This document shows positions 2,233-23,399 of a stretch of DNA of 23,591 nucleotides, piece by piece. Source of the stretch: Eledone cirrhosa (lineage: Eukaryota); NCBI GenBank assembly GCA_964016885.1, contig CAXHJY010001466.1:1-23591 (forward strand), read 5' to 3'. Under the pieces are notes generated by a model. The model saw only the letters and a list, made by a program, of their open reading frames with translations, did no database searches and was not told where the DNA came from. Position numbers and translations under genes: made by a program. Every line of letters starts with the position of its first letter. Position 1 is the stretch's first letter.

Positions 2233-5200
2233 TTAGAGATGCCTACTGGCAAGGCGGGTCTTCTCTGTTACTGAGTACCGCCAAAGGTCTCGGTCCAGTG
2301 ACATTGTCTTGGAGAGGTGTAAGTGTGTGAGGTCGGAGTTTATCAGCTCATCCCAGGTTTTTCTAGGTCTGCCTATTCCGTGGCTACCGTCTATCTTTAT
2401 TGCCCTGCACTTTGTTATACAGCTATCGACTTTCATGCGCATCACGTGTCCATACCAACGCAGCCTTCTCTCGAGTAAACAACATCTGATCCCTCTTATC
2501 TCTAATTTTTTCCTTAGTTCGTTTATGCTTTGCTGTTCACGTATATTACTGTTACATATCCAGCGGAGCATGCAAGCTTCGTTCCTCTCTAGTCTGCGTA
2601 TATCCTCTGCACACAATGCCCAGGTCTCACTACCATGCAACATTGCTGTTCGTATGCAGGCATCGTACAACCTGCCTTTCATTTTTAGGGAGAACCCTTT
2701 AGCAGCTAATAGTGGTATAAGCTCTCTGAACTTTTTCCAACCAGTTCTGACTCTAGCTACAGTACTTTCAGAGCACCCTCCCCCACTGCTGATTTTATTG
2801 CCCAGGTAACGGAAGCTGTCCACTATTTCTATAGAACCCTCTGCGCAATTGAAAGAGCTAGTATTTTGTGGGCACTTGCTGCTACTTATTGCACCAGAAC
2901 ACCGGCCACATGTAAAATCTATGTTCTTAGTTAGCTTACCTGTGATCCCACTACATCTTTTATGCACCCATACTTTGCATTTAGGACATAAAATGGAGTT
3001 TCTACCTACGCCTTTCCTACACACCGAGCACGACCATTTCCCAGAAGGGACCGCCGCCTTGTTTTCTTTCCTACAAACTAGAACTTTGGTCTTAGCCAGG
3101 TTAATTTTAAGTCCTTTTGACTCTAGGCCGTGCTTCCATGTTTGGAATTTCTTCTCTAGCTCGGCCATTGATTCCGCTATGAGTGTCAGGTCGTCTGCGT
3201 ATAGGAGTTCCCATGGGCAGCCTGTCTTGAACTCCTCTGTTATAGCCTGAAGGGCAATAATAAATAGTAGGGGGCTGAGAACAGAGCCCTGATGGACGCC
3301 AACTTTTACGCTAAACTCTTCACTATATTCGTTGTTAATTCTAACCTTGCTGACTGTTTCTTTATACATGGCTTGTATAGCCCTCACAAGCCATTCGTCA
3401 ATGCCTAGTTTTCTAAGAGCCCACCAGATAATGGAGCGGGGGACTCTGTCGAAGGCTTTCTCCAGGTCGACAAAAGCTAAGTAGAGGGGTTTACCTTTAG
3501 CTAGGTACTTCTCCTGTAGTTGTCGTACTATGAAAAGAGCGTCTGTGGTGCTTTTGCCTGACACAAACCCGAACTGCATTTCATCTAGGTCAATTCTCTC
3601 TCTGATTAGCTGCGCTATTACTTTTTCCGTGACCTTCATGACCTGGTCGATTAATTTAATGCCTCTATAGTTACTCCTATCTAGGGCGTCTCCTTTACCC
3701 TTATAACAGTTAACGATGATGCTGCTATGCCAGTCCTTCGGAACAACCCCATTCTGTACGACTTGGTTAACTATGCGGGTGACCATGGTGTGTCCTACCG
3801 TGCCAGATGCCTTCAGCATCTTAGCAACTATTTCCGAAGGCCCAGCCGCCTTACCCGTCTTCATATCCTTGATTGCCTTACTTATTATACTCCCCTCGAC
3901 TAACACTGCTGGTCCCTCTATTGGGTCGATATGGGGGAGACTGTCTTTCTCCCATTTATTCTCCTCATTTAGTAGCCTTTCATAGTGACACTTCCAAGCT
4001 ACCTTCTTATCAGTGTCGGTGATGGCAAGTATGCCATCATCGTTAAGTACACACTTCTCCCCGACAATATCACGGTTTTCCTTGACGCATTGCCTAGCAA
4101 TCCTGAACACCTCACGTTTTTGGTCATCGCGTTGTAGAACATGCTTGAACTTTCTTTCCTCAGCTTCCCTTCTTGCTAAGTACACTTCTCTCCTAGCTTC
4201 CCTCCTGGCCACTTGATAGTCTACTCTACTTCCCCCATCCCGCCATACTTTCCAAGCCTGCTTTTTGGCCTTAATTGACCCCTCCACCCTACTGTTCCAC
4301 CACCATGTTACTCTCCTCCTGCCTACAGGCCTGCTCCAGCCACAGACTTCGTCTGTCGCCAACAGCAGGTTTGCTTTCAGAAATTCCCACTGTCCCTCTA
4401 TATTGTCCGATTCTAGATGCTCTTCCTTACTGTCGTAAGCATCAAGTAATATGCTTTGAAATTTATTTCTGGCTGTGGGGTCCTTTAGTTTCCATATTTT
4501 CCTCCTGAGGATAGTCCTCTTCTGCTGTCAAGTACGTCTCGTCCTGACTATGAGGTCGCTAATTATCAGTCTATGTTGGGAGGTGCATTCTTCATGGGGG
4601 AGGGATTTAGTGTTTACAACAGACACTCTGTCACGTCTTCTGGTAAGGATATAATCTACTTGTGTGTTCCCCGGATCTATAGGTGATCAGGTGATTGTCA
4701 CGTTTTTTGAAGTTAGTGTTACAGATAGTTAGGTTATTTGCATCACAGAATTCCAGGATTCTGGAGCCTTCCTCATTTCTAGTACCAAACCCATAGCCTC
4801 CATGGATTTCGTCGTAGCCGTCACAATGTTGTCCAACGTGACCATTTAGGTCGCCTGCAATAATTATATAGTCACTGTCAGATATTTGGGAGGTAGTTAG
4901 CAACAGTGTCTCATAGAATCTGTCTTTTATAGTGCCGGGCAGTCCGGATTGGGGTGCGTACGCAGATATTACTGTCACCGTAGTTCTATTGAGGACAAGT
5001 CGTATTTTAATTATTCTGTCGTTCACTCTATTTACGTCTATTATCTTATCTGCCCACTTTTCTGCTACCATGATTCCTACTCCACCCAGCCCATCGTCGT
5101 TTCCCACCCAGAAAAGCTTATAACATCGTTTTTTACCCTCAATGAATCTAGCAGACCCACCCCTCCACCTGGTCTCTTGAATACAACAAACATCGACCTC

Positions 5201-5394
5201 CTTACGTTCAAGCATTTCTACAACCTCGTTAGCGCGACCCTTTAGGGTGCCTACATTTATGGTACCAACTCTGAAGTTTTGGGTTGCGTTTGGAGGGCGG
5301 GGGGAGATAGGGTTATGTTAGCCATCCGCGGACGAAACAAAGAGGAGTGCTCGCATTGTCGTCCACGAGGTGAATTTGACTTTAACTTTGGCAT
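2233..5394 (-). pseudogene. RTE polyprotein (APE endonuclease + reverse transcriptase + PHD-type finger), about 1050 aa when reconstructed, with 3 disablements
   Basis: APE motifs: FRVGTINVGTLKGR, VCCIQETRW, ISAYAPQ, AGDLNGH, QVDYIL, SQHRL. RT motifs: NYRGIKL, QFGF, FVDLEKAFD, GVHQGSVLSPLLF, LLYADD, FRYLG, RLRWYGHVMR. Frameshifts lie near 5275 and near 4660, with an in-frame TGA at 4528-4530. The start ATG at 5394 (MPKLKS...) is inferred. Confidence 0.9.
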
Positions 5395-6292: not shown

Positions 6293-9009
6293 AGAGAAGG
6301 GGTAATGGAGTGGGTAGATTGTTGACAGTAGGGGTGGATGGGCTGGGTAGATTGTTAAGAGAAGGGGTGGATGGACTGGGTAGATTGTTGAGAGAAGGGG
6401 TGGATGGGCTGGGTAGATTGTTAAGAGAAGGGATGGGTGGACTGGGTAGATTGTTGACAGTAAGGGGTGGGTGGACTGGGTAGATTGACAGTAGGGGTGG
6501 ATGGGCTGGGTAGATTGTTAAGAGAAGGGGTAGATGGGCTGGGTAGATTGTTAAGATAAGGGGATGGACTGGGTAGATTGTTGACAGTAAGGGTGGATGG
6601 GCTGGGTAGATTAAGAGAAGGGGTGGATGGACTGGGTAGATTGTTAAGAGAAGGGGTGGATGGACTGGGTAGATTGTTAAGAGAAGAGGTGGGTGGACTG
6701 GGTAGATTGTTGACAGTAGGGGTGGATGGGTTGGGTAGATTGTTACGAGAAGGGGTGGATGGACTGGGTAGATTGTTGACAGTAGGGGTGGATGGGCTGG
6801 GTAGATTGTTAAGAGAAGGGGTGGGTGGACTGGGTAGATTGTTAAGAGAAGGGGTGGATGGACTGGGTAGATTGTTAAGAGAAGGGGTGGGTATACTGGG
6901 TAGATTGTTAAGAGAAGGGGTGGGTGGACTGGGTAGATTGTTGACAGTAGGGGTGGATGGGCTGGGTAGATTGTTAAGAGAAGGGGTAGATGGACTGGGT
7001 AGATTGTTGAGAGAAGGGGTGGATGGGCTGGGTAGATTGTTAAGATAAGGGGTGGATGGACTGGGTAGTTTGTTAAGAGAAGGGGTGGATGTACTGTGTA
7101 GATTGTTAAGAGAAGGGGTGGATTTACTGGGTAGATTGTTAAGAGAAGAGGTGGGAGGACTGGGTAGATTGTTAAGAGAAGAGGTGGGAGGACTGGGTAG
7201 ATTGTTAATAGAAGGGGTGGATGGACTGGGTAGATTGTTGAGAGAAGGGGTGGATGGACTGTGTAGATTGTTGAGAGAAGGGGTGGATGGACTGGGTAGA
7301 TTGTTAAGAGACGGGGTGGATGGACTGGGTAGATTGTTGAGAGAAGGGGTGGATGGACTGGGTAGATTGTTAAGAGACGGGGTGGATGGACTGGGTAGAT
7401 TGTTGAGAGAAGGGGTGGATGGACTGGGTAGATTGTTAAGAGAAGGAGTGGATGGACTGGGTAGATTGTTAAGAGAAGGGGTGGATGGACTGGGTAGATT
7501 GTTAAGAGAAGGGGTGGGTGAACTGGGTAGATTGTTGACAGTAGGGGTGGATGGGCTGGGTAGATTGACAGTAGGGGTGGATGGGCTGTGTAGATTGTTA
7601 AGAGAAGGGGTAGATGGCCTGGGTAGATTGTTGAGAGAAGGGGTAGATGGGCTGGGTAGATTGTTAAGATAAGGGGTGGATGGACTGGGTAGTTTGTTAA
7701 GAGAAGGGGTGGATGTACTGTGTAGATTGTTAAGAGTAGGGGTGGATTTACTGGGTAGATTGTTAAGAGAAGAGGTGGGAGGACTGGGTAGATTGTTAAG
7801 AGAAGAGGTGGGAGGACTGGGTAGATTGTTAATAGAAGGGGTGGATGGACTGGGTAGATTGTTAAGAGAAGGGATGGGTGGACTGGGTAGATTGTTAAGA
7901 GAAGGGGTGGATGGACTGGGTAGATTGTTAAGAGAAGGGGTGGGTGAACTGGGTAGATTGTTGACAGTAGGGGTGGATGGGCTGGGTAGATTGTTAAGAG
8001 AAGGAGTGGAGGCACTGGGTAGATTGTTAAGAGAAGGGGTGGATGCACTGGGTAGATTGTTAAGAGAAGGGGTGGGTGGACTGGGTAGATTGACAGTAGG
8101 GGTGGATGGGCTGGGTAGATTGTTAAGAGAAGGGGTAGATGGACTGGGTAGATTGTTGAGAGAAGGGGTGGATGGGCTGGGTAGATTGTTAAGATAAGGG
8201 GTGGATGGACTGGGTAGTTTGTTAAGAGAAGGGGTGGATGTACTGTGTAGATTGTTAAGAGAAGGGGTGGATTTACTGGGTAGATTGTTAAGAGAAGAGG
8301 TGGGAGGACTGGGTAGATTGTTAAGAGAAGAGGTGGGAGGACTGGGTAGATTGTTAATAGAAGGGGTGGATGGACTGGGTAGATTGTTGAGAGAAGGGGT
8401 GGATGGACTGGGTAGATTGTTGAGAGAAGGGGTGGATGGACTGGGTAGATTGTTAAGAGACGGGGTGGATGGACTGGGTAGATTGTTGAGAGAAGGGGTG
8501 GATGGACTGGGTAGATTGTTAAGAGACGGGGTGGATGGACTGGGTAGATTGTTGAGAGAAGGGGTGGATGGACTGGGTAGATTGTTAAGAGAAGGAGTGG
8601 ATGGACTGGGTAGATTGTTAAGAGAAGGGGTGGATGGACTGGGTAGATTGTTAAGAGAAGGGGTGGAGGCACTGGGTAGATTGTTAAGAGAAGGGGTGGG
8701 TGGACTTGGTAGATTGTTAAGAGAAGGGGTGGATGGACTGGGTAGATTGTTAAGAGAAGGGGTGGGTGAACTGGGTAGATTGTTGACAGTAGGGGTGGAT
8801 GGGCTGGGTAGATTGTTGAGAGAAGGGGTGGATGGACTGGGTAGATTGTTAAGAGAAGGGGTGGAGGCACTGGGTAGATTGTTGAGAGAAGGGGTGGAGG
8901 CACTGGGTAGATTGTTGAGAGAAGGGGTGGATGGACTGGGTAGATTGTTGAGAGAAGGGGTGGATGGACTGGGTAGATTGTTAAGATGGGTGGATGGGCT
9001 GGAGAGATT
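6293..9009. repeat. 33-bp G-rich intronic minisatellite, about 82 units, with higher-order duplications
   Basis: Unit GGGTAGATTGTTAAGAGAAGGGGTGGATGGACT. Strings of variant units recur from about 7052, 7676 and 8201. Confidence 0.97.
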
Positions 9010-10516: not shown

Positions 10517-10732
10517 GCTGGCGACCTCAACCAAATAACAGTTTAGAAATTCACAATGGAATCAGCTCCATTGATCCACTAATTGCTCGTTACACGTCAA
10601 CTGAATATAGTCAATACCTTTCCTGGAATACATCTTTACAGAGTGAAGGATTTTATATTAGACTTCGAGGAAACTTCTACCATTTTGACAGACTAGAATT
10701 TTCTTACACAGCAGCTGTAATGATGACCACAG
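10517..10732 (+). CDS. Host gene exon D: C-terminal half of the second CUB domain
   Basis: Acceptor ttttccaataaag| and donor |gtcagt. Encodes GWRPQPNNSLEIHNGISSIDPLIARYTSTEYSQYLSWNTSLQSEGFYIRLRGNFYHFDRLEFSYTAAVMMTT, with the CUB 'LEI..G......L...Y' pattern. 216 nt, phase 1-1. Confidence 0.85.
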
Positions 10733-10905
10733 GTCAGTTGAAATTTACATCTATGTGGTGTGTGTGTGTGTGTCTATATGTATGTGTATGTGTGTCTGTA
10801 TATGTCTATATGTATGTGGTGTGTCTGTCCATATGTATGAAGTGGATTTCTTCATCACACAGCCATAACCGCACCTTTCTTTATCTTCAATATATATATA
10901 TAATA

Positions 10906-12171: not shown

Positions 12172-12303
12172 ATGGTTGTCCAGAAAACTTCAGATTCCCT
12201 TGTTTCAATCTATTGTGTATTTCTGAGTCATTGCAATGTGATAGAATTGATCATTGTGGAGATAATTCCGATGAAAGTCCGGCCTTGGAATGTAATTATG
12301 ACA
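12172..12303 (+). CDS. Host gene exon E: LDL-receptor class A module 1
   Basis: Acceptor ctattttccag| and donor |gtaaga. Encodes DGCPENFRFPCFNLLCISESLQCDRIDHCGDNSDESPALECNYD, with 6 Cys and CGDNSDE. Phase 1-1. Confidence 0.93.
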
Positions 12304-12363
12304 GTAAGAAACAACATTATTTCCTTCATTTATTTGCCCAGAACCAGCACTATTATTATTACA

Positions 12364-12804
12364 GTGGATTGGCAGTATCGGTAGGAGGTCAGATGCCTTG
12401 CTTTGCAGCATAGAGTTACGGCCCTTGCCATTCTGAGGTTAACTTTGCCTTTCATCCTTACGGGGTTGGTGTAATAAAGTACCAGGAATACACCGAGATC
12501 AATTTAATTGACTTTCCCTTCCTCCCCAAATCGTTGTCCTTATGCTTGAATTAGAAACCATTAGGTGGATTGGCAGTATCGGTAGAGGGTCGGACGCCAT
12601 GCTTTGAAGCATAGAGTTACGGCCCTTGCCATTCTGAGTTCAAATCCCGCCAAGGTTAACTTTGCCTTTCATCCTTACGGGGGTCGATAAAATAAAGTAC
12701 CAGTAATGCACTGGGTAATTGCTGGCCTTGTGCCAAAAGTAGAAACAATTATTATTATAATTATTGGTTGGTGGATTGGCAGTAATTGGTAGAGCGTCGG
12801 ATCA
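12364..12804 (+). mobile_element. Three head-to-tail copies of a tRNA-derived SINE (Meta-domain-like): 12364-12563, 12564-12765 and head-only 12770-12804
   Basis: Each copy starts GTGGATTGGCAGTA(A)TYGGTAG. Copy 2 has a B box GAGTTCAAATCC, which is deleted in copy 1. Central domain GGTTAACTTTGCCTTTCATCCTTACGGGG..ATAAAGTACCAG, with an (ATT)n tail. Confidence 0.85.
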
Positions 12805-14295: not shown

Positions 14296-14759
14296 AGAAT
14301 CCATATTTTGCTTATTTTGGAAGGTTTCGAGTTTTGTTCTTACAAAATTTCATTATGGGAACCAATTCCCAAAGTTGCCAAACTCTTTCAGTAGCTGTTG
14401 AACGAACGAGATCACCAGAGGAAGCTGAGATTTCTACTGGAAGATGCTGTTACCTGTACCATTGAAGCAGATGCAAGCACCGCACCAAATTTACCTGTAA
14501 TTTGGTGACATAATTAACATATTCTGCAGGTAAACATGAGCAGGTGAATTCACGAGTTTAATGAAGTAAAAAAAAAAAAAAGCATGTTTTCACACACACA
14601 CATATATGTATATATATACACATATACATACATACACACACATATATATACACACACACATATACATACATGTATATATACATACACACACACATATATA
14701 TATATATACACACACACACATATATACACACACACACACACACATAAATATGGATACAT

Positions 14760-14800
<41 letters not shown>

Positions 14801-14860
14801 TATGTATGTATATATATATATGTATGTATATATATATATGTATATATATATATATGTATG

Positions 14861-14939
<79 letters not shown>

Positions 14940-17304
14940 ATATATACATATATATATGTATACATATATATACATATATATATGTATACATATATATACA
15001 TATATATATGTATACATATATATACATATATATATGTATACATATATATACATATATATATGTATACATATATATACATATATATATGTATACATATATA
15101 TACATATATATATGTATATATATATATACATATATATATGTATATATATACATATATATATGTATATATATACATATATATATGTATATATATACATATA
15201 TATATGTATATATATACATACATATATGTATATATATACATATATGTATATATATACATATATATATGTATATATATACATATATGTATATATATACATA
15301 TATATATGTATATATATACATATATGTATATATATACGTATATATATACGTATATATATATGTATATATATATATGTATATATATACATATATATATGTA
15401 TATATATACATATATATATGTATATATATACATATATATATGTATATATATACATATATATAAGTATATATATACATATATATAAGTATATATATACATA
15501 TATATAAGTATATATATACATATATATATATGTATACATATATATATGTATACATATATACATATATATACATATATACACATATATACATATATACATA
15601 TATACATATGTATACATATATACATATTTATACATATATACATATATATATATGTATACATATATACATATATATATATGTATACATATATACATATATA
15701 TATATGTATACATATATACATATATATATATGTATACATATATACATATATATATATGTATACATATATACATATATATATATGTATACATATATACATA
15801 TATATATATATGTATACATATATAGATATATATATATGTATACATATATACATATATATATATGTATACATATATATATATATGTATACATATATACATA
15901 TATGTATACATATATACATATATATATATGTATACATATATATATATGTATACATATATACATATGTATATATATGTATACATATGTATACATATATACA
16001 TATGTATACATATATACATATGTATACATATATATATGTATACATATGTATACACATATACATATGTATACATATATACATATGTATACATATATATATA
16101 TGTATACATATGTATATATGTATACATATGTATACATATATATATATGTATACATATATATATATGTATACATATATATATATGTATACATATATATATA
16201 TGTATACATATATATATATGTATACATATATATATATGTATACATATATATATAAGTATACATATATATATATGTATACATATATATGTATACATATATA
16301 TATATATGTATACATATATATATGTATACATATGTATACACATATACATATGTATACATATATACATATGTATACATATATACATATGTATACATATATA
16401 CATATGTATACATATATATATATATGTATACATATATATATATGTATACATATATATGTATACATATATATATATGTATACATATATATATATGTATACA
16501 TATATATATATGTATACATATATATATATGTATACATATATATATATATGTATACATATATATATGTATACATATATATATATGTATACATATATATATA
16601 AGTATACATATATATATATGTATACATATATATATATGTATACATATATATATATATGTATACATATATATATATATGTATACATATATACATATGTATA
16701 CATATATACATATGTATACATATATACATATGTATACATATATACATATGTATACATATATATATATGTATACATATATATATATGTATACATATATACA
16801 TATGTATACATATATATATATGTATACATATATATATATGTATACATATATATATATGTATACATATATATAGATATAAATATATATATATATACATACA
16901 TATATATACATATATACATAAATACATATATACATATATATACATATACACATATATATACATATATATACATATATATACATATATACACATATATACA
17001 TATATATACATATATACATATATATACATATATATACATATATATATATGTATACATATATGTATACATATATATATATATGTATACATATATATATATG
17101 TATACATATATATATATATATATGAATACATATATATATATATATGTATACATATATATATATATATGTATACATATATATATATATGTATACATATATA
17201 TATATATGTATACATATAGATATATGTATACATATATACATATATATATATATACATATATACATATTTACATATATATATATACATATTTACATATATA
17301 TATA

Positions 17305-17349
17305 TCATCATCGTTTAACGTCCATGTTCCACGCTTGCATGGGTTTGGA
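17305..17349 (-). mobile_element. About 45-bp RTE 3'-terminal fragment, copy 1
   Basis: TCATCATCGTTTAACGTCCATGTTCCACGCTTGCATGGGTTTGGA matches the tail of the RTE at about 1890-1937. Confidence 0.9.
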
Positions 17350-17383
<34 letters not shown>

Positions 17384-17419
17384 CATATTTACATATATAC
17401 ATATATATATATATATATA

Positions 17420-17464
17420 TCATCATCGTTTAACGTCCGTGTTCCACGCTTGCATGGGTTTGGA
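17420..17464 (-). mobile_element. About 45-bp RTE 3'-terminal fragment, copy 2
   Basis: Same as copy 1 apart from one substitution, with the same truncation point. Confidence 0.9.
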
Positions 17465-17541
17465 TATATATATATATACATATATACATATATATATATA
17501 TATACACATATATATATATATATACACATATATATATATAC

Positions 17542-17604
<63 letters not shown>

Positions 17605-17652
17605 CATATATATATATATACATATATATATATACATATATATATATACATA

Positions 17653-17698
<46 letters not shown>

Positions 17699-17699
17699 C

Positions 17700-17764
<65 letters not shown>

Positions 17765-17820
17765 CATATATATACATATATATATATAATACATATATAT
17801 ATATATACATATATATATAC

Positions 17821-17883
<63 letters not shown>

Positions 17884-17914
17884 CATATGTATATATACAT
17901 ATGTATATATATAC

Positions 17915-17945
<31 letters not shown>

Positions 17946-18426
17946 CATATGTATATATATATACATATATATATATACATATATATATATACATATATAT
18001 ATATACATATGTATATATATATACATATATATATATACATATGTATATATACATATATATATATACACATATATATATACATATATATATATATATACAT
18101 ATATATACATATATATATATATACATATATATACATATATATATATATACATATATTTACAAACATATATATACATATATACATATATATACATATATAT
18201 ACATATATACATATATATACATATACATATATACATATATATACATATATACATATATACATATATATACATATATATACATATATATATACATATATAC
18301 ACATATATACATATATATACATATATATACATATATATACATATATACATATATATACATATATACATATATATACATATATACATATATATACATATAT
18401 ACATATATACATATATACATATATAC

Positions 18427-19005
<579 letters not shown>

Positions 19006-19008
19006 TAC

Positions 19009-19091
<83 letters not shown>

Positions 19092-19092
19092 T

Positions 19093-19209
<117 letters not shown>

Positions 19210-19225
19210 CATATATATATATATA

Positions 19226-19343
19226 CGTGGGAAAGTGAAAAATCGGAGAATAGACCGTTAAAACATGTTTATTGAAAATATCACCTACGTACGTTTCGCC
19301 CAGTTGGGCTTCTCAAGGGCATAAACAGTCACAAGTGTTCCTT
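19226..19343 (-). mobile_element. Penelope-like pLTR 3' fragment with a hammerhead-like motif and poly(A) signal
   Basis: Minus strand reads atgccc-TTGAGAA-GCCC-aact-GGGC-GAAAC-gtac-GTA-ggtgat, then AATAAA (plus strand TTTATT at 19268-19273). Embedded in (TA)n. Confidence 0.7.
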
Positions 19344-19382
19344 ATATATGTATATACATATATATATATACATATATATACA

Positions 19383-19414
<32 letters not shown>

Positions 19415-19449
19415 CATATATATACATATATATATATACATATATATAC

Positions 19450-19535
<86 letters not shown>

Positions 19536-19545
19536 ATACATATAC

Positions 19546-19576
<31 letters not shown>

Positions 19577-19854
19577 CATATATATACATATACATATATA
19601 CATATACATATATATATATACATATATATATATACATATACATATATATATATATATACATATATATATTTCTTTTATTTGCCACTATATATATATATAC
19701 ATATATATACATATACATATATATTTTATTTGCCATATATATATATATACATATACATATATATATATACATATATATATATACATATACATATATATAT
19801 ATACATATACATATATACATATACATATATACATATATATATATATACATATAC

Positions 19855-19904
<50 letters not shown>

Positions 19905-19916
19905 ATATACATATAC

Positions 19917-20004
<88 letters not shown>

Positions 20005-20012
20005 ATATATAT

Positions 20013-20123
<111 letters not shown>

Positions 20124-20146
20124 CATATATACATATACATATATAC

Positions 20147-20279
<133 letters not shown>

Positions 20280-20298
20280 CATATACATATATATATAC

Positions 20299-20329
<31 letters not shown>

Positions 20330-20366
20330 ATATATATATATACACATATATATATATATATACACA

Positions 20367-20532
<166 letters not shown>

Positions 20533-20581
20533 CATATATACATACATATATACATACACATATATATACATATATATATAC

Positions 20582-20613
<32 letters not shown>

Positions 20614-20827
20614 ATACATATACATATATATATACATATATATATACATATACATATATATATATAGTATTAGTTATACTATTTATGGTTATGTAAACAC
20701 AAAACCTTAAGCAGTTGTAAGTATTTTACACACACCCTAAATAGTGGTAGGCAGTAATGTATTACTACCTTATTACCAGTAAGTTAAGTAGCTCAATGTA
20801 AAAACATCAGATGATTTACAGAGCAGT

Positions 20828-21149
20828 TATATGAAATATAAGAATCAAAGAACTGTTCAAAACATTATTGTGCTTACAGCTGTTTCCTCCAAACCGAGGT
20901 TTGTACCTATTAATATAAATGTAATCTCGAAGTGTGTACTGCCACTCTAAATTCTGTAATGAATGTTGACCCACAATGTTTGAATATGTATCAATGTTTG
21001 AATATGTATTGGTATGTCTCTCGGCTGAAAAGGAGGTCATATAACTGTCCATGCATTAATAAATTGCTCCGAAGAATCCAAACCTCGGTTTGGAGGAAAC
21101 AGCTGTAAGCACAATAATGTTTTGAACAGTTCTTTGATTCTTATATTTC

Positions 21150-21154
<5 letters not shown>
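20828..21154 (+). mobile_element. Penelope-like remnant with a perfect 76-bp inverted terminal duplication and a hammerhead-like motif
   Basis: 20828-20903 is the exact reverse complement of 21079-21154. The motif TGCT-CCGAAGA-aTCCAAAC-ctcg-GTTTGGAg-GAAAC-agct-GTA-AGCA lies at 21065-21111. Confidence 0.7.
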
Positions 21155-21234
<80 letters not shown>

Positions 21235-21251
21235 CATATATATATATATAC

Positions 21252-21388
<137 letters not shown>

Positions 21389-21487
21389 CATATATACATA
21401 TATATATATACATATATACATATACATATATATATATACATATATATATATATACATATATACATATATATATATATACATATATAC

Positions 21488-21576
<89 letters not shown>

Positions 21577-22299
21577 CATATATATATATACATATATATA
21601 TATACATATTTACATATACATATATATATATATACATATATACATATATATATATACATATATACATATATATATATATACATATATACATATATATATA
21701 TATACATATATACATATATATATATACATATATACATATATATATATATACATATATACATATATATATATATACATATAGATATATACATATATACATA
21801 TAGATATATACATATATACATATATATATATATACATATATACATATATATATATATACATATATACATATATATATATACATATATACATATATATATA
21901 TACATATATACATATATATATACATATATACATATATACATATATATATATACATATATACATATATATATATACATATATACATATATACATATATATA
22001 TATACATATATACACATATATATATATATATATACATATATACATATATATATATATATACATATATACATATATATACATATATACATATATATATATA
22101 CATATATACATATATATATATACATATATACATATATATATATACATATATACATATATATATATACATATATACATATATATATATACATATATACATA
22201 TATATATATACATATATACATATACATATATACATATATACATATATATATATACATATATACATATACATATATACATATACATATATACATATATAC

Positions 22300-22360
<61 letters not shown>

Positions 22361-22437
22361 CATATATATATATATACGTATATATATATATACATATATA
22401 TATATATACATATATATTTATACATATATATATATAC

Positions 22438-22522
<85 letters not shown>

Positions 22523-22639
22523 CATATATATATACATATATATATACATATATATATATACATATATATATATACATATATATATACATATATATATACA
22601 TATATATATATATACATATATATATACATATATATATAT

Positions 22640-22670
<31 letters not shown>

Positions 22671-22699
22671 TACATATATATATACATATATATATATAC

Positions 22700-22746
<47 letters not shown>

Positions 22747-22785
22747 CATATATATATACATATATATATATACATATATATATAC

Positions 22786-22832
<47 letters not shown>

Positions 22833-22876
22833 CATATATATATATATACACATATATATATATACATATATATATT

Positions 22877-23292
22877 AGAAAGTGAGGTTTTTTTTACAAA
22901 ATGAAAAAATAACCGAGGTGTCCTACACGAGTGGAAGTATAAAGAAAAAGGGATGAAATCGAAAATGCAACTGAAGTCTTATTTTTTTAAAAAATATATA
23001 TATTTATTTGGTTCCTTTACCGGTTTCGCAGTTCTTCTGCTTTTCAAAAGGTGAGTTGAGATGGAGGGTCTGTGCTTTTTCTCACATCTGGTTGGTCTCT
23101 AAATGTTAATTGTTTTATATGGAAAAAGTGGCTCGAAAACCAGGTTTTTCGAGAAGTAATTTGATTGGTTTGTCAATAATTATAATAAATTTCGCGCCAG
23201 TTCGCGTTACAATAGTTCTTCAAATAAGAGAGGGGGGGGTGTCACAGGTTGTTTTTTCATATATGAGTGTTTGAATTTCTTTTTACTTGAAA
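22877..23292 (-). mobile_element. Penelope-like pLTR fragment inserted in (TA)n
   Basis: A non-repetitive island containing a minimal hammerhead followed by AATAAA on the minus strand. Confidence 0.6.
23014..23051 (-). ncRNA. Minimal type I hammerhead ribozyme, U3-A8 core variant
   Basis: Minus strand reads CCUU-UUGAAAA-GCAG-aagaa-CUGC-GAAA-C-cg-G-UA/AAGG. Stem I (CCUU/AAGG) and stem II (GCAG/CUGC) are perfect, stem III is the palindrome ACCGGU, and the cleavage triplet is GUA. Confidence 0.72.
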
Positions 23293-23367
23293 ATATATAT
23301 ATGTATATATACACATATATATATATATACATATATATATATACATATATATATATATACACATATA

Positions 23368-23399
<32 letters not shown>

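What the first reader, a model, noticed from the sequence alone, without database searches (positions are those of the whole stretch)
23014..23051. Structurally intact 38-nt minimal hammerhead ribozyme with a compensated U3-A8 core, hidden in a (TA)n field
Seen: the minus strand reads CCUU UUGAAAA GCAG aagaa CUGC GAAA C CG G UA AAGG, followed by AAUAAA about 5 nt later. Stems I and II pair perfectly. The canonical C3-G8 pair of CUGAnGA is replaced by U3-A8, so a search for CTGANGA would miss it. Established: Penelope-like retroelements carry minimal type I hammerheads in their pLTRs, with a short palindromic stem III associated with cleavage as dimers. Inference: this is a self-cleaving RNA of a cephalopod Penelope-like family, cutting between 23018 and 23017.
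Basis: partly seen in the sequence, partly recalled or inferred. Interest (0 to 1): 0.8.

Follow-up and report, generated by a model that had tools for sequence, protein, structure and literature searches.

The report
Hammerhead ribozyme of a Penelope retrotransposon
This 38-base motif has the layout of a small self-cutting RNA and sits at the end of a jumping gene copied thousands of times in this genome; such motifs are already known in this class of jumping genes, and the ends of the copies suggest that most of its RNA likely stays uncut.

Summary
The 38-mer is at 23051->23014 as described. It is not an isolated curiosity: there are 6,009 exact copies genome-wide (control 0). The 417-nt island is a 5'-truncated pseudo-LTR of a young Neptune-like Penelope element: ORF1, a conserved UUUUUUA -1 overlap, RT plus C-terminal GIY-YIG, and (TA)n targets. 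U3-A8 is a published PLE variant (PMC4209133), and positions 3 and 8 covary genome-wide.

Three corrections. Stem I is weak across subfamilies. AAUAAA shows no poly(A) use. U3 can pair with the cleavage-site A17, analogous to the inhibitory C3:G17 trap.

In 104 sampled copies, 85 run through the cut site, and 40 begin about 71 nt upstream of it, 30 nt below a TATA box. Uncut transcripts therefore likely are the main template. A roughly threefold excess of 5' ends near the cut site is only suggestive.

Verdict: new member of a known kind; cleavage untested; cephalopod origin untested.

The parts
23014..23051 (-). Minimal type I hammerhead motif: stem I CCUU/AAGG, core UUGAAAA (U3-A8), stem II GCAG/CUGC, GAAA, GUA triplet; predicted cut 23018|23017
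   Evidence: Sequence; 6,009 exact genomic copies; covariation
23019..23024 (-). Palindromic stem III region ACCGGU, the predicted dimerisation helix
   Evidence: Sequence; modelled double hammerhead -18.9 kcal/mol against -12.8 for two monomers; CCGG in 9 of 11 in-genome family representatives
22871..23292 (-). 5'-truncated pseudo-LTR of a Neptune-like Penelope element (-274 to +147 relative to the cut site); no ORF in this copy
   Evidence: 97.9% identical to the pLTR of the complete element L032; 40 of 40 scored genomic matches 97-100% identical, 1,748 first-look candidates
23113..23119 (-). TATAAAA, likely the TATA box of the pLTR promoter (inferred)
   Evidence: Exactly 30 nt upstream of AGATGTGAG in all 40 regex matches in L001-L030
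23085..23090 (-). 5'-end hot spot of genomic copies (-72 to -67); likely transcription start, modal A at about 23089 (CCAGATG)
   Evidence: 40 of 104 copies begin here, 0.36 expected; depth step at 23090 in contigs of runs X1 and X5
22938..22945 (-). 3' end site 1 (+80, ...CTTTATA), likely an internal reverse-transcription start
   Evidence: 45 of 104 copies end here, joined to (TA)n; loose TA ends at 22938 in runs X1, X4 and X5
22871..22880 (-). 3' end site 2 (+147, ...TCTAATATAT); the 67 nt between the two sites is the PLE 'tail'; in complete elements ORF1 starts 169 nt after the cut site
   Evidence: 58 of 104 copies end at +145/+147
23003..23008 (-). AATAAA; no evidence that it acts as a poly(A) signal
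   Evidence: Sampled copies end at +80, +134 or +145/+147 without A tails; absent from families C and D and from L187
14602..22875 (.). (TA)n/(TATATG)n field downstream; insertion target type
   Evidence: 26 of 30 best copies are followed by TA repeat, the other 4 by ORF1
23293..23591 (.). (TA)n field upstream, running to the contig end

Best explanation
The 38-mer is the minimal type I hammerhead motif in the pseudo-LTR of a young, high-copy Neptune-like Penelope retroelement, and it likely cleaves after GUA only slowly, as a dimer and probably with help from the element's protein. Shown: the window island is a truncated pLTR; complete elements carry the motif in both pLTRs around ORF1 and RT-GIY-YIG; copies end at two TATA-ending sites (+80, +147) fused to (TA)n; 40 of 104 copies start about 71 nt upstream of the cut, 30 nt below a TATA box; 85 of 104 run through the cut site. 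Inferred: RNA polymerase II starts at about 23089; the GIY-YIG cuts (TA)n and the two DNA ends prime reverse transcription at +80 and +147, giving head-to-head pairs; the uncut transcript is the usual template; the U3:A17 pair keeps monomers in an off state; rare cleavage of both hammerheads and re-ligation would give a circle whose more-than-unit copying puts the TATA box, which lies outside the transcript's 5' end, back in front of ORF1.
For: 6,009 exact copies, control 0. Complete element L032: pLTR(HHR)-ORF1-ORF2-pLTR(HHR), the two motifs 4,679 nt apart on one strand; GIY-YIG above the Pfam cut-off, RVT_1 E 4.9e-06 but below it. 3-8 covariation: excess over control 79,334 for paired (C-G plus U-A) against 5,814 for mismatched cores (counts dominated by a few families). 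Stem II keeps pairing with different letters in families whose flanks are close to shuffled identity. On 20 aligned motifs 80% of cells pair, 0 of 500 shuffles reach this, and all slid controls are lower. Dimer model favoured by about 6 kcal/mol. Related PLE contigs from other samples carry hammerheads: 34 descriptor hits in 97 loci, 6 of them U3-A8. All 40 head-to-head pairs (hand count) have one +80 and one +145/147 end, as expected from the two RT start sites shown in vitro for PAc (PMC11167929). That paper also found the PAc hammerhead protein-assisted and uncut RNA the dominant substrate.
Against: No cleavage assay and no RNA reads. Stem I is only 2-4 bp across families, and the outer two pairs are unpaired in 13 and 10 of 20 rows. 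In the -71..+147 transcript stem I forms with probability 0.08. U3:A17 is predicted in the monomer fold, whereas all 6 external U3-A8 motifs have U or C at 17. L031 has the same stem II-breaking change (-20 C) in both pLTRs, so at least one more-than-unit element arose or persisted with an impaired motif. Motifs were chosen by a core pattern, so their core conservation is partly circular. Neptune placement rests on motifs, not on a tree.
Confidence: 0.72

Rival explanations
1. The motif is a catalytically dead or nearly dead hammerhead, kept as a protein-binding or dimerisation structure (stem II plus the ACCGGU kissing palindrome) that helps bring two priming sites or two RNAs to the two ends of the target break.
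For: U3:A17 trap; weak stem I; 85 of 104 copies run through the site; hammerhead mutants did not affect PAc insertion in vitro (PMC11167929); L031 carries a broken stem II in both pLTRs.
Against: Purely structural use would not explain why G5, A6, A9, G12, A13, A14, the 3-8 pair and the 2.1-1.1 pair are kept across diverged families (partly circular). There is also a modest excess of copy 5' ends at the cut site.
Confidence: 0.17
2. It is an efficient ribozyme that routinely defines the ends of the transposition RNA: cleavage and circularisation is the main route, as proposed for PLEs and retrozymes.
For: Hand tally (100 of 337 listed): truncations at -3..+3 run at about 41 per position genome-wide with the mode at +1 (18 of 85), against about 14 per position at -18..-13. 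There are 18 5' ends at +1..+41 against 3.9 expected. The two pLTRs of L031 and of L142 share private variants, as single-template copying predicts.
Against: A circle has no special end at -71, yet 40 of 104 copies begin there. Only 3 of 104 begin within 3 nt of the cut site. The downstream excess is broad and coincides with the TA microhomology and an AT palindrome at +8..+30. L032's pLTRs differ at 6 of 408 sites, as much as unrelated copies do (mean 7.0).
Confidence: 0.09
3. It is a chance hammerhead-like string in an AT-rich repeat, amplified passively.
For: Fold z-score -0.94; no Rfam hammerhead hit; copy number alone reflects amplification.
Against: It lies in the pLTR, where PLE hammerheads are known to lie. 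The same core with different, still-pairing stem II sequences recurs in diverged families and in PLE contigs from other samples.
Confidence: 0.02

Closest known systems
Minimal type I hammerheads of metazoan Penelope-like elements, including the U3-A8 variant of Schistosoma mansoni (Cervera and de la Pena 2014, PMC4209133; read parts 1-2 of 4, figures not seen)
   Same: Located in both pLTRs; short helix I; palindromic 15.2/loop 3/16.2; G10.1-C11.1; U3-A8 core (about 1,300 hits reported there); mostly single truncated copies; pairs on opposite strands 100-700 bp apart; predicted dimer.
   Different: Stem II is only 4 bp, with no extra base between 9 and 10.1. N17 is A, so U3 can pair with it (N17 of their variant could not be seen). 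The family is very homogeneous (6,009 identical copies), like D. virilis rather than their variable families.
Neptune clade of EN+ Penelope-like elements (Craig et al. 2021, PMC8557442; passages and supplement passages read)
   Same: RT then C-terminal GIY-YIG; CX4CxxC linker followed by a long spacer as in Neptune1_Nv; DKG motif; helical ORF1 separated by a frameshift; (TA)n targets; inverted 5'-truncated partner; tail at one end.
   Different: Tail is 67 nt rather than 30-40 nt. No RT tree was built, and no pseudoknot was shown after the slippery site. I could not see which clades carry the ORF1 frameshift in their Fig. 1.
Poseidon_Ac (PAc) of Anolis (Frangieh et al. 2024, PMC11167929; read parts 1-2 of 4)
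   Same: Two internal RT start sites that define a tail; AT-rich targets; hammerhead apparently bypassed by most templates.
   Different: PAc starts lie inside the ORF at sites without target homology, and its core is C3-G8. Here both sites lie in the 5' UTR/pLTR and end in TATA, matching the target.
Drosophila virilis Penelope promoter (Schostak et al. 2008, PMC2377424; abstract and Discussion read)
   Same: Promoter in the pLTR; expression needs a partial tandem; pLTR regeneration is unexplained.
   Different: Theirs is TATA-less and internal, with an intron. Here a TATAAAA lies 30 nt upstream of the inferred start, outside the transcript's 5' end; no intron was seen.
Non-LTR retrozymes (PMC7229834, passages; bioRxiv 10.64898/2026.07.22.740005, part 1 of 5)
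   Same: Type I hammerhead, non-coding short copies, PLE-related.
   Different: This family is dispersed or in inverted pairs, not in head-to-tail arrays, and has an autonomous parent. True retrozyme-like arrays in this genome belong to other, C3-G8 families.

Membership tests
Minimal type I hammerhead | Core N3 U4 G5 A6 N7 N8 A9 ... G12 A13 A14 with a Watson-Crick 3-8 pair | tested here: met
   UUGAAAA...GAAA, U3-A8; paired cores exceed mismatched ones 79,334 to 5,814 above control
Minimal type I hammerhead | Stem II closed next to the core | tested here: met
   4 bp with G10.1-C11.1; pairing probability 0.84 in the UTR; different pairing sequences in other families
Minimal type I hammerhead | Open stem I flanking the core and the cut site | tested here: met
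   4 bp here; inner pair kept in 20 of 20 and second pair in 15 of 20 rows, with changes on both sides; outer pairs weak
Minimal type I hammerhead | A15.1-U16.1 with a short palindromic stem III | tested here: met
   ACCGGU; A-U and C-G kept in 20 of 20 rows (partly fixed by the search pattern)
Minimal type I hammerhead | NUH cleavage triplet with N17 free of pairing to N3 | tested here: inconclusive
   GUA meets NUH literally, but U3:A17 is predicted to pair, by analogy with the C3:G17 trap (PMC3884650); the effect on activity is unknown
Minimal type I hammerhead | Site-specific self-cleavage | not testable with these tools
   Needs an in vitro assay or RNA ends
EN+ Penelope-like element | PLE-type RT with GIY-YIG endonuclease | tested here: met
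   L032:3371-5695, 775 aa open: GIY-YIG 27.6 bits (cut-off 22.6), RVT_1 E 4.9e-06 (26.8 bits, cut-off 29.6); 769 homologues
EN+ Penelope-like element | Partial-tandem pLTRs with hammerheads, inverted 5'-truncated partners, one-sided tail | tested here: met
Neptune clade | C-terminal EN preceded by a CX2-5CxxC linker and the CCHH motif | tested here: met
   CGRSNCGTC...C...C..C...H...H; spacer long as in Neptune1_Nv, unlike Nematis and Poseidon rows (compared by eye)
Neptune clade | Placement in the RT phylogeny with reference Neptune elements | not tested
   No reference set available as stored sequences
Naiad/Chlamys | N-terminal GIY-YIG and no canonical hammerhead | tested here: not met
   EN is C-terminal (residues 682-772)
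Non-LTR retrozyme | Head-to-tail tandem repeats of 170-400 nt, each with a hammerhead | tested here: not met
   One copy in the window; sampled genomic copies are dispersed or in inverted pairs

The most novel reading that the evidence does not exclude
The U3-A8/A17 combination is a built-in off switch. Most transcripts stay uncut and litter the genome as promoter-less copies starting at the transcription start, while a few percent are cleaved, leaving a fossil peak of 5' ends at the cut site. Only those yield circles whose rolling copying rebuilds the upstream TATA promoter and founds new active elements. This would be genomic evidence of in vivo cleavage by a PLE hammerhead and an answer to how pLTRs are regenerated.
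Probability: 0.2. Interest if true: 0.72.

Novelty: new member of a known kind. Interest (0 to 1): 0.4.

Why it matters
As a motif it is ordinary: hammerheads, including U3-A8 cores, are documented in Penelope-like elements. The value lies in the family. It is young, present in thousands of near-identical copies and includes an open-framed complete element, so insertion ends can be read as a record of the RNA templates (start site, two priming sites, cut versus uncut). That makes two open questions directly testable: what PLE hammerheads do in vivo, and how the pseudo-LTR promoter is rebuilt. The U3:A17 pairing offers a one-base test of an off-switch idea. It also shows that CUGAnGA-only searches would miss roughly 20,000 motifs in this genome (25,540 hits less 5,234 control).

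Tried and rejected
Rfam scans: only spurious miRNA hits on the TA fields and no hammerhead family in the island. A loose core pattern was uninformative. RNA evidence: no RNA holder listed, and the four runs laid were contigs of unrecorded kind, so they say nothing on expression or ends. AAUAAA as a poly(A) signal: rejected, no A tails and not conserved. The -71 hot spot as a splice acceptor (CAG|ATG): disfavoured, since many copies include the CAG, there is no common upstream exon and no pyrimidine tract. The hot spot as an RT stall at a hairpin: disfavoured, since the ends lie on the far (5') side of the predicted hairpin. A sharp cleavage footprint: (38 junctions) showed no single peak; some searches gave a mode at +1 but broad and confounded; these tallies are by hand. 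ORF1 as a gag/capsid: an Atlas lead under 0.9; no Pfam family shared by more than 1 of 103 members; the AlphaFold model is all long helices (pLDDT 89.8) with only generic helical matches, best Z 8.5; not supported. A frameshift pseudoknot was not shown; plain folding gave only weak hairpins. One search used mis-counted columns and is superseded. The bacterial promoter scan is not applicable. No earlier scan findings for this genome. Lunse et al. 2017 on PLE hammerhead variants was not held and may already describe U3-A8/A17 motifs. Literature searches turned up no report of this family, but they cover only the held library; supplements of the bioRxiv paper and all figures were not seen.

Full report
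Observation. It lies in a 417-nt non-repetitive island between two (TA)n fields (14602-22875 and 23293-23591). The window is the whole of contig C1493 of a 3.0-Gb genome. The 38-mer alone is not unusually stable (z -0.94). Its best fold has stems I and II but adds a fifth pair, U3:A17. Rfam has no hammerhead match in the island. Positions below are relative to the predicted cut, +1 being the first base after GUA.

It is part of a repeat. The island has 1,748 first-look candidates; all 40 scored match at 97-100%. The exact 38-mer occurs 6,009 times, control 0. Of the 30 best loci, 26 continue into TA repeat and 4 continue into an ORF.

The parent element. Locus L032 holds pLTR - ORF1 - ORF2 - pLTR, with the hammerhead in both pLTRs on one strand, 4,679 nt apart, and the ORF1 ATG 169 nt after the cut site. 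[quoted passage not shown] It carries ADKG and a CX4CxxC linker with the long spacer seen in Neptune1_Nv in the supplement of PMC8557442 (by eye). ORF1 overlaps ORF2 in the -1 frame at TTTTTTA. Of 21 closer relatives chosen from 97 outside loci, 13 had upstream sequence; 5 of these have the same in-frame heptamer and 8 an overlapping upstream ORF. A frameshifted ORF1 is an already described PLE option (PMC8557442 Fig. 1 legend). ORF1 has 516 relatives, no shared Pfam family and folds as long helices. The window island is a 5'-truncated pLTR (-274 to +147), the only copy in the window. Neptune placement rests on motifs; no tree was built. The host was not identified, so 'cephalopod' is untested.

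Is the motif under selection? Genome-wide descriptor counts are 59,611 for C3-G8 (control 583), 25,540 for U3-A8 (control 5,234) and 93,000 for any Y3/R8 (control 7,852). That leaves an excess of 79,334 paired against 5,814 mismatched cores; a few families dominate, so these are not independent events. Several diverged families share UUGAnAA...GAAACCGGUA with different but pairing stem II (GCAG/CUGC, GAUG/CAUC, GCAU/AUGC) while their flanks approach shuffled identity. One of them lies next to an ORF1 homologue (L179, 41%). On 20 aligned motifs, 80% of cells pair for stem I, 3-8 and stem III; 0 of 500 shuffles reach this and slid controls give 26-49%. The motifs were picked by a core pattern, so core conservation is partly built in; stem I and stem II pairing are not. 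Against: the outer two stem I pairs fail in 13 and 10 of 20 rows, and subfamilies of the focal element have 2-4 pairs. A descriptor scan of 97 outside PLE loci gave 34 hits, 6 of them U3-A8 and one A3-U8. U3-A8 itself was reported in S. mansoni PLEs in 2014 (PMC4209133), so the variant is not new.

One real difference. All 6 outside U3-A8 motifs have U or C at position 17; this family has A (my in-genome pattern required A17, so it cannot show how general that is here). G17 is thought to inactivate minimal hammerheads by pairing with C3 (PMC3884650); U3:A17 is the analogous pair and appears in the folds. The double-hammerhead dimer via ACCGGU scores -18.9 kcal/mol against -12.8 for two monomers, but the dimer's best fold (-20.3) keeps one U3:A17 pair, and in the -71..+147 RNA stem I forms with probability 0.08. 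The inference is low intrinsic activity.

What the copy ends record. I mapped 104 copies found in 70 loci around most of the first 100 of 4,486 matches to a k-mer at +40..+67, all on contig C1. 3' ends: 58 at +145/+147, 45 at +80, 1 at +134; both main sites end in TATA and are fused to (TA)n. All 40 head-to-head pairs (hand count) combine one +80 with one +145/147 end, and partner arms differ less than unrelated copies (1-7 substitutions in 9 inverted pairs, mean about 2.6, against 7.0). This matches the two RT start sites and tail shown in vitro for PAc (PMC11167929). 5' ends: 40 of 104 at -72..-67 (0.36 expected), 9 at -66..-54, 3 at -53..-4, 3 at -3..+3, 16 at +4..+41 and 33 further upstream (arms of a pair are not independent). 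TATAAAA lies exactly 30 nt upstream of that peak in the window (23119 against 23089) and in all 40 regex matches in L001-L030. Older relatives also begin near -70, and contigs of runs X1 and X5 show a depth step at 23090 and loose TA ends at 22938 (X1 may be the assembly's own sample). I infer a polymerase II start at about 23089 and uncut, linear RNA as the commonest template: 85 of 104 copies run through the cut site.

Is there a trace of cleavage? Copies truncated within -3..+3 number about 41 per position genome-wide (337 hits; of the 100 listed, 15 were internal indels and dropped; starts at -3..+3 were 8, 9, 16, 10, 18, 11, 13 by hand). The control window -18..-13 gives about 14 per position (168 hits, about half internal indels). 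One search also had its mode at +1 (12 of 51 unique loci by hand); one search showed no single peak. The excess is broad, and the only TA dinucleotide and an AT palindrome lie at or just after the site, so microhomology can explain it. At most a few percent of copies would derive from cut RNA.

Mechanism. Shown: position, parent element, end sites, covariation. Inferred: transcription from the pLTR TATA promoter; a GIY-YIG break in (TA)n; priming at +80 and +147 from the two DNA ends; mostly uncut templates; slow, dimer- and probably protein-assisted cleavage. Because the TATA box lies upstream of the start, a simple copy loses its promoter, and more-than-unit copying must restore it; cleavage and circularisation, proposed in PMC4209133, would do so. 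Evidence here is mixed. The two pLTRs of L031 and of L142 share private variants; L032's differ at 6 of 408 sites; and L031's shared variant breaks stem II. How pLTRs are regenerated is stated as open in PMC2377424.

Papers seen: PMC4209133 parts 1-2 of 4; PMC11167929 parts 1-2 of 4; PMC3884650 part 1 of 5 and passages; PMC2377424 abstract and Discussion; PMC8557442 passages and supplement passages; PMC6765202, PMC6155905, PMC7229834 and PMC12602865 passages; bioRxiv 10.64898/2026.07.22.740005 part 1 of 5. Hammerhead numbering, the TATA/initiator spacing and UUUUUUA as a -1 slippery site are recalled knowledge.

Verdict. A real minimal hammerhead motif in a Neptune-like PLE pLTR: a new member of a known kind. 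Interest 0.4, carried by the testable U3:A17 off switch and the end map of a young family.

Noticed in passing
window:2233-5317 (-): Near-intact APE endonuclease (4631-5317) and RT (2233-4527, 764 aa open) frames of a non-LTR retrotransposon, RTE-like by eye; unrelated to the hammerhead element.
   Followed up: no
window:9866-10090, 10560-10760 and 12200-12400 (+): Short coding-like stretches (CUB-like 'DCVWVIRK' and LDL-receptor class A-like 'CDRIDHCGDNSDE', recalled motifs) suggest exons of a host gene between simple repeats.
   Followed up: no
window:1-1884 and 6293-8986: 80-bp satellite (23.6 copies, 96%) and 33-bp minisatellite (82 copies, strongly G-skewed).
   Followed up: no
G000:C1:1239857-1244284 and C1:5388706-5392670: Arrays of about 310-nt units, each with a C3-G8 hammerhead, arranged as two diverging arms: non-LTR retrozyme-like; C3-G8 motifs total about 59,000.
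   Followed up: partly
L032:3390-3400 and L189, L190, L194, L197, L200: Conserved TTTTTTA heptamer at the ORF1/ORF2 overlap (ORF1 ...FL..., ORF2 ...FF...), a likely -1 frameshift; ORF1 is a large helical family without Pfam entry.
   Followed up: partly
L017, L028 and window:14602-22875: Some copies are followed by more than 1.5 kb of TA/TG repeat (8.3 kb here); whether the element inserts into long arrays or extends them was not tested.
   Followed up: no
G000:C1:152839360-152839413: A copy that begins with several head-to-tail repeats of the 9 nt right after the cut site, as if RT re-copied an RNA 5' end there.
   Followed up: no
L269-L285; P0012, P0037, P0041, P0056: Animal-type PLE RT/GIY-YIG sequences sit in bacterial MAGs and are labelled as symbiont proteins, probably host contamination.
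   Followed up: no
window:23132-23153 (-): Perfect 8-bp hairpin in the pLTR just upstream of the TATA box; role unknown.
   Followed up: no
L234:1969: A PLE-linked hammerhead with an A3-U8 core in a metagenome contig.
   Followed up: no
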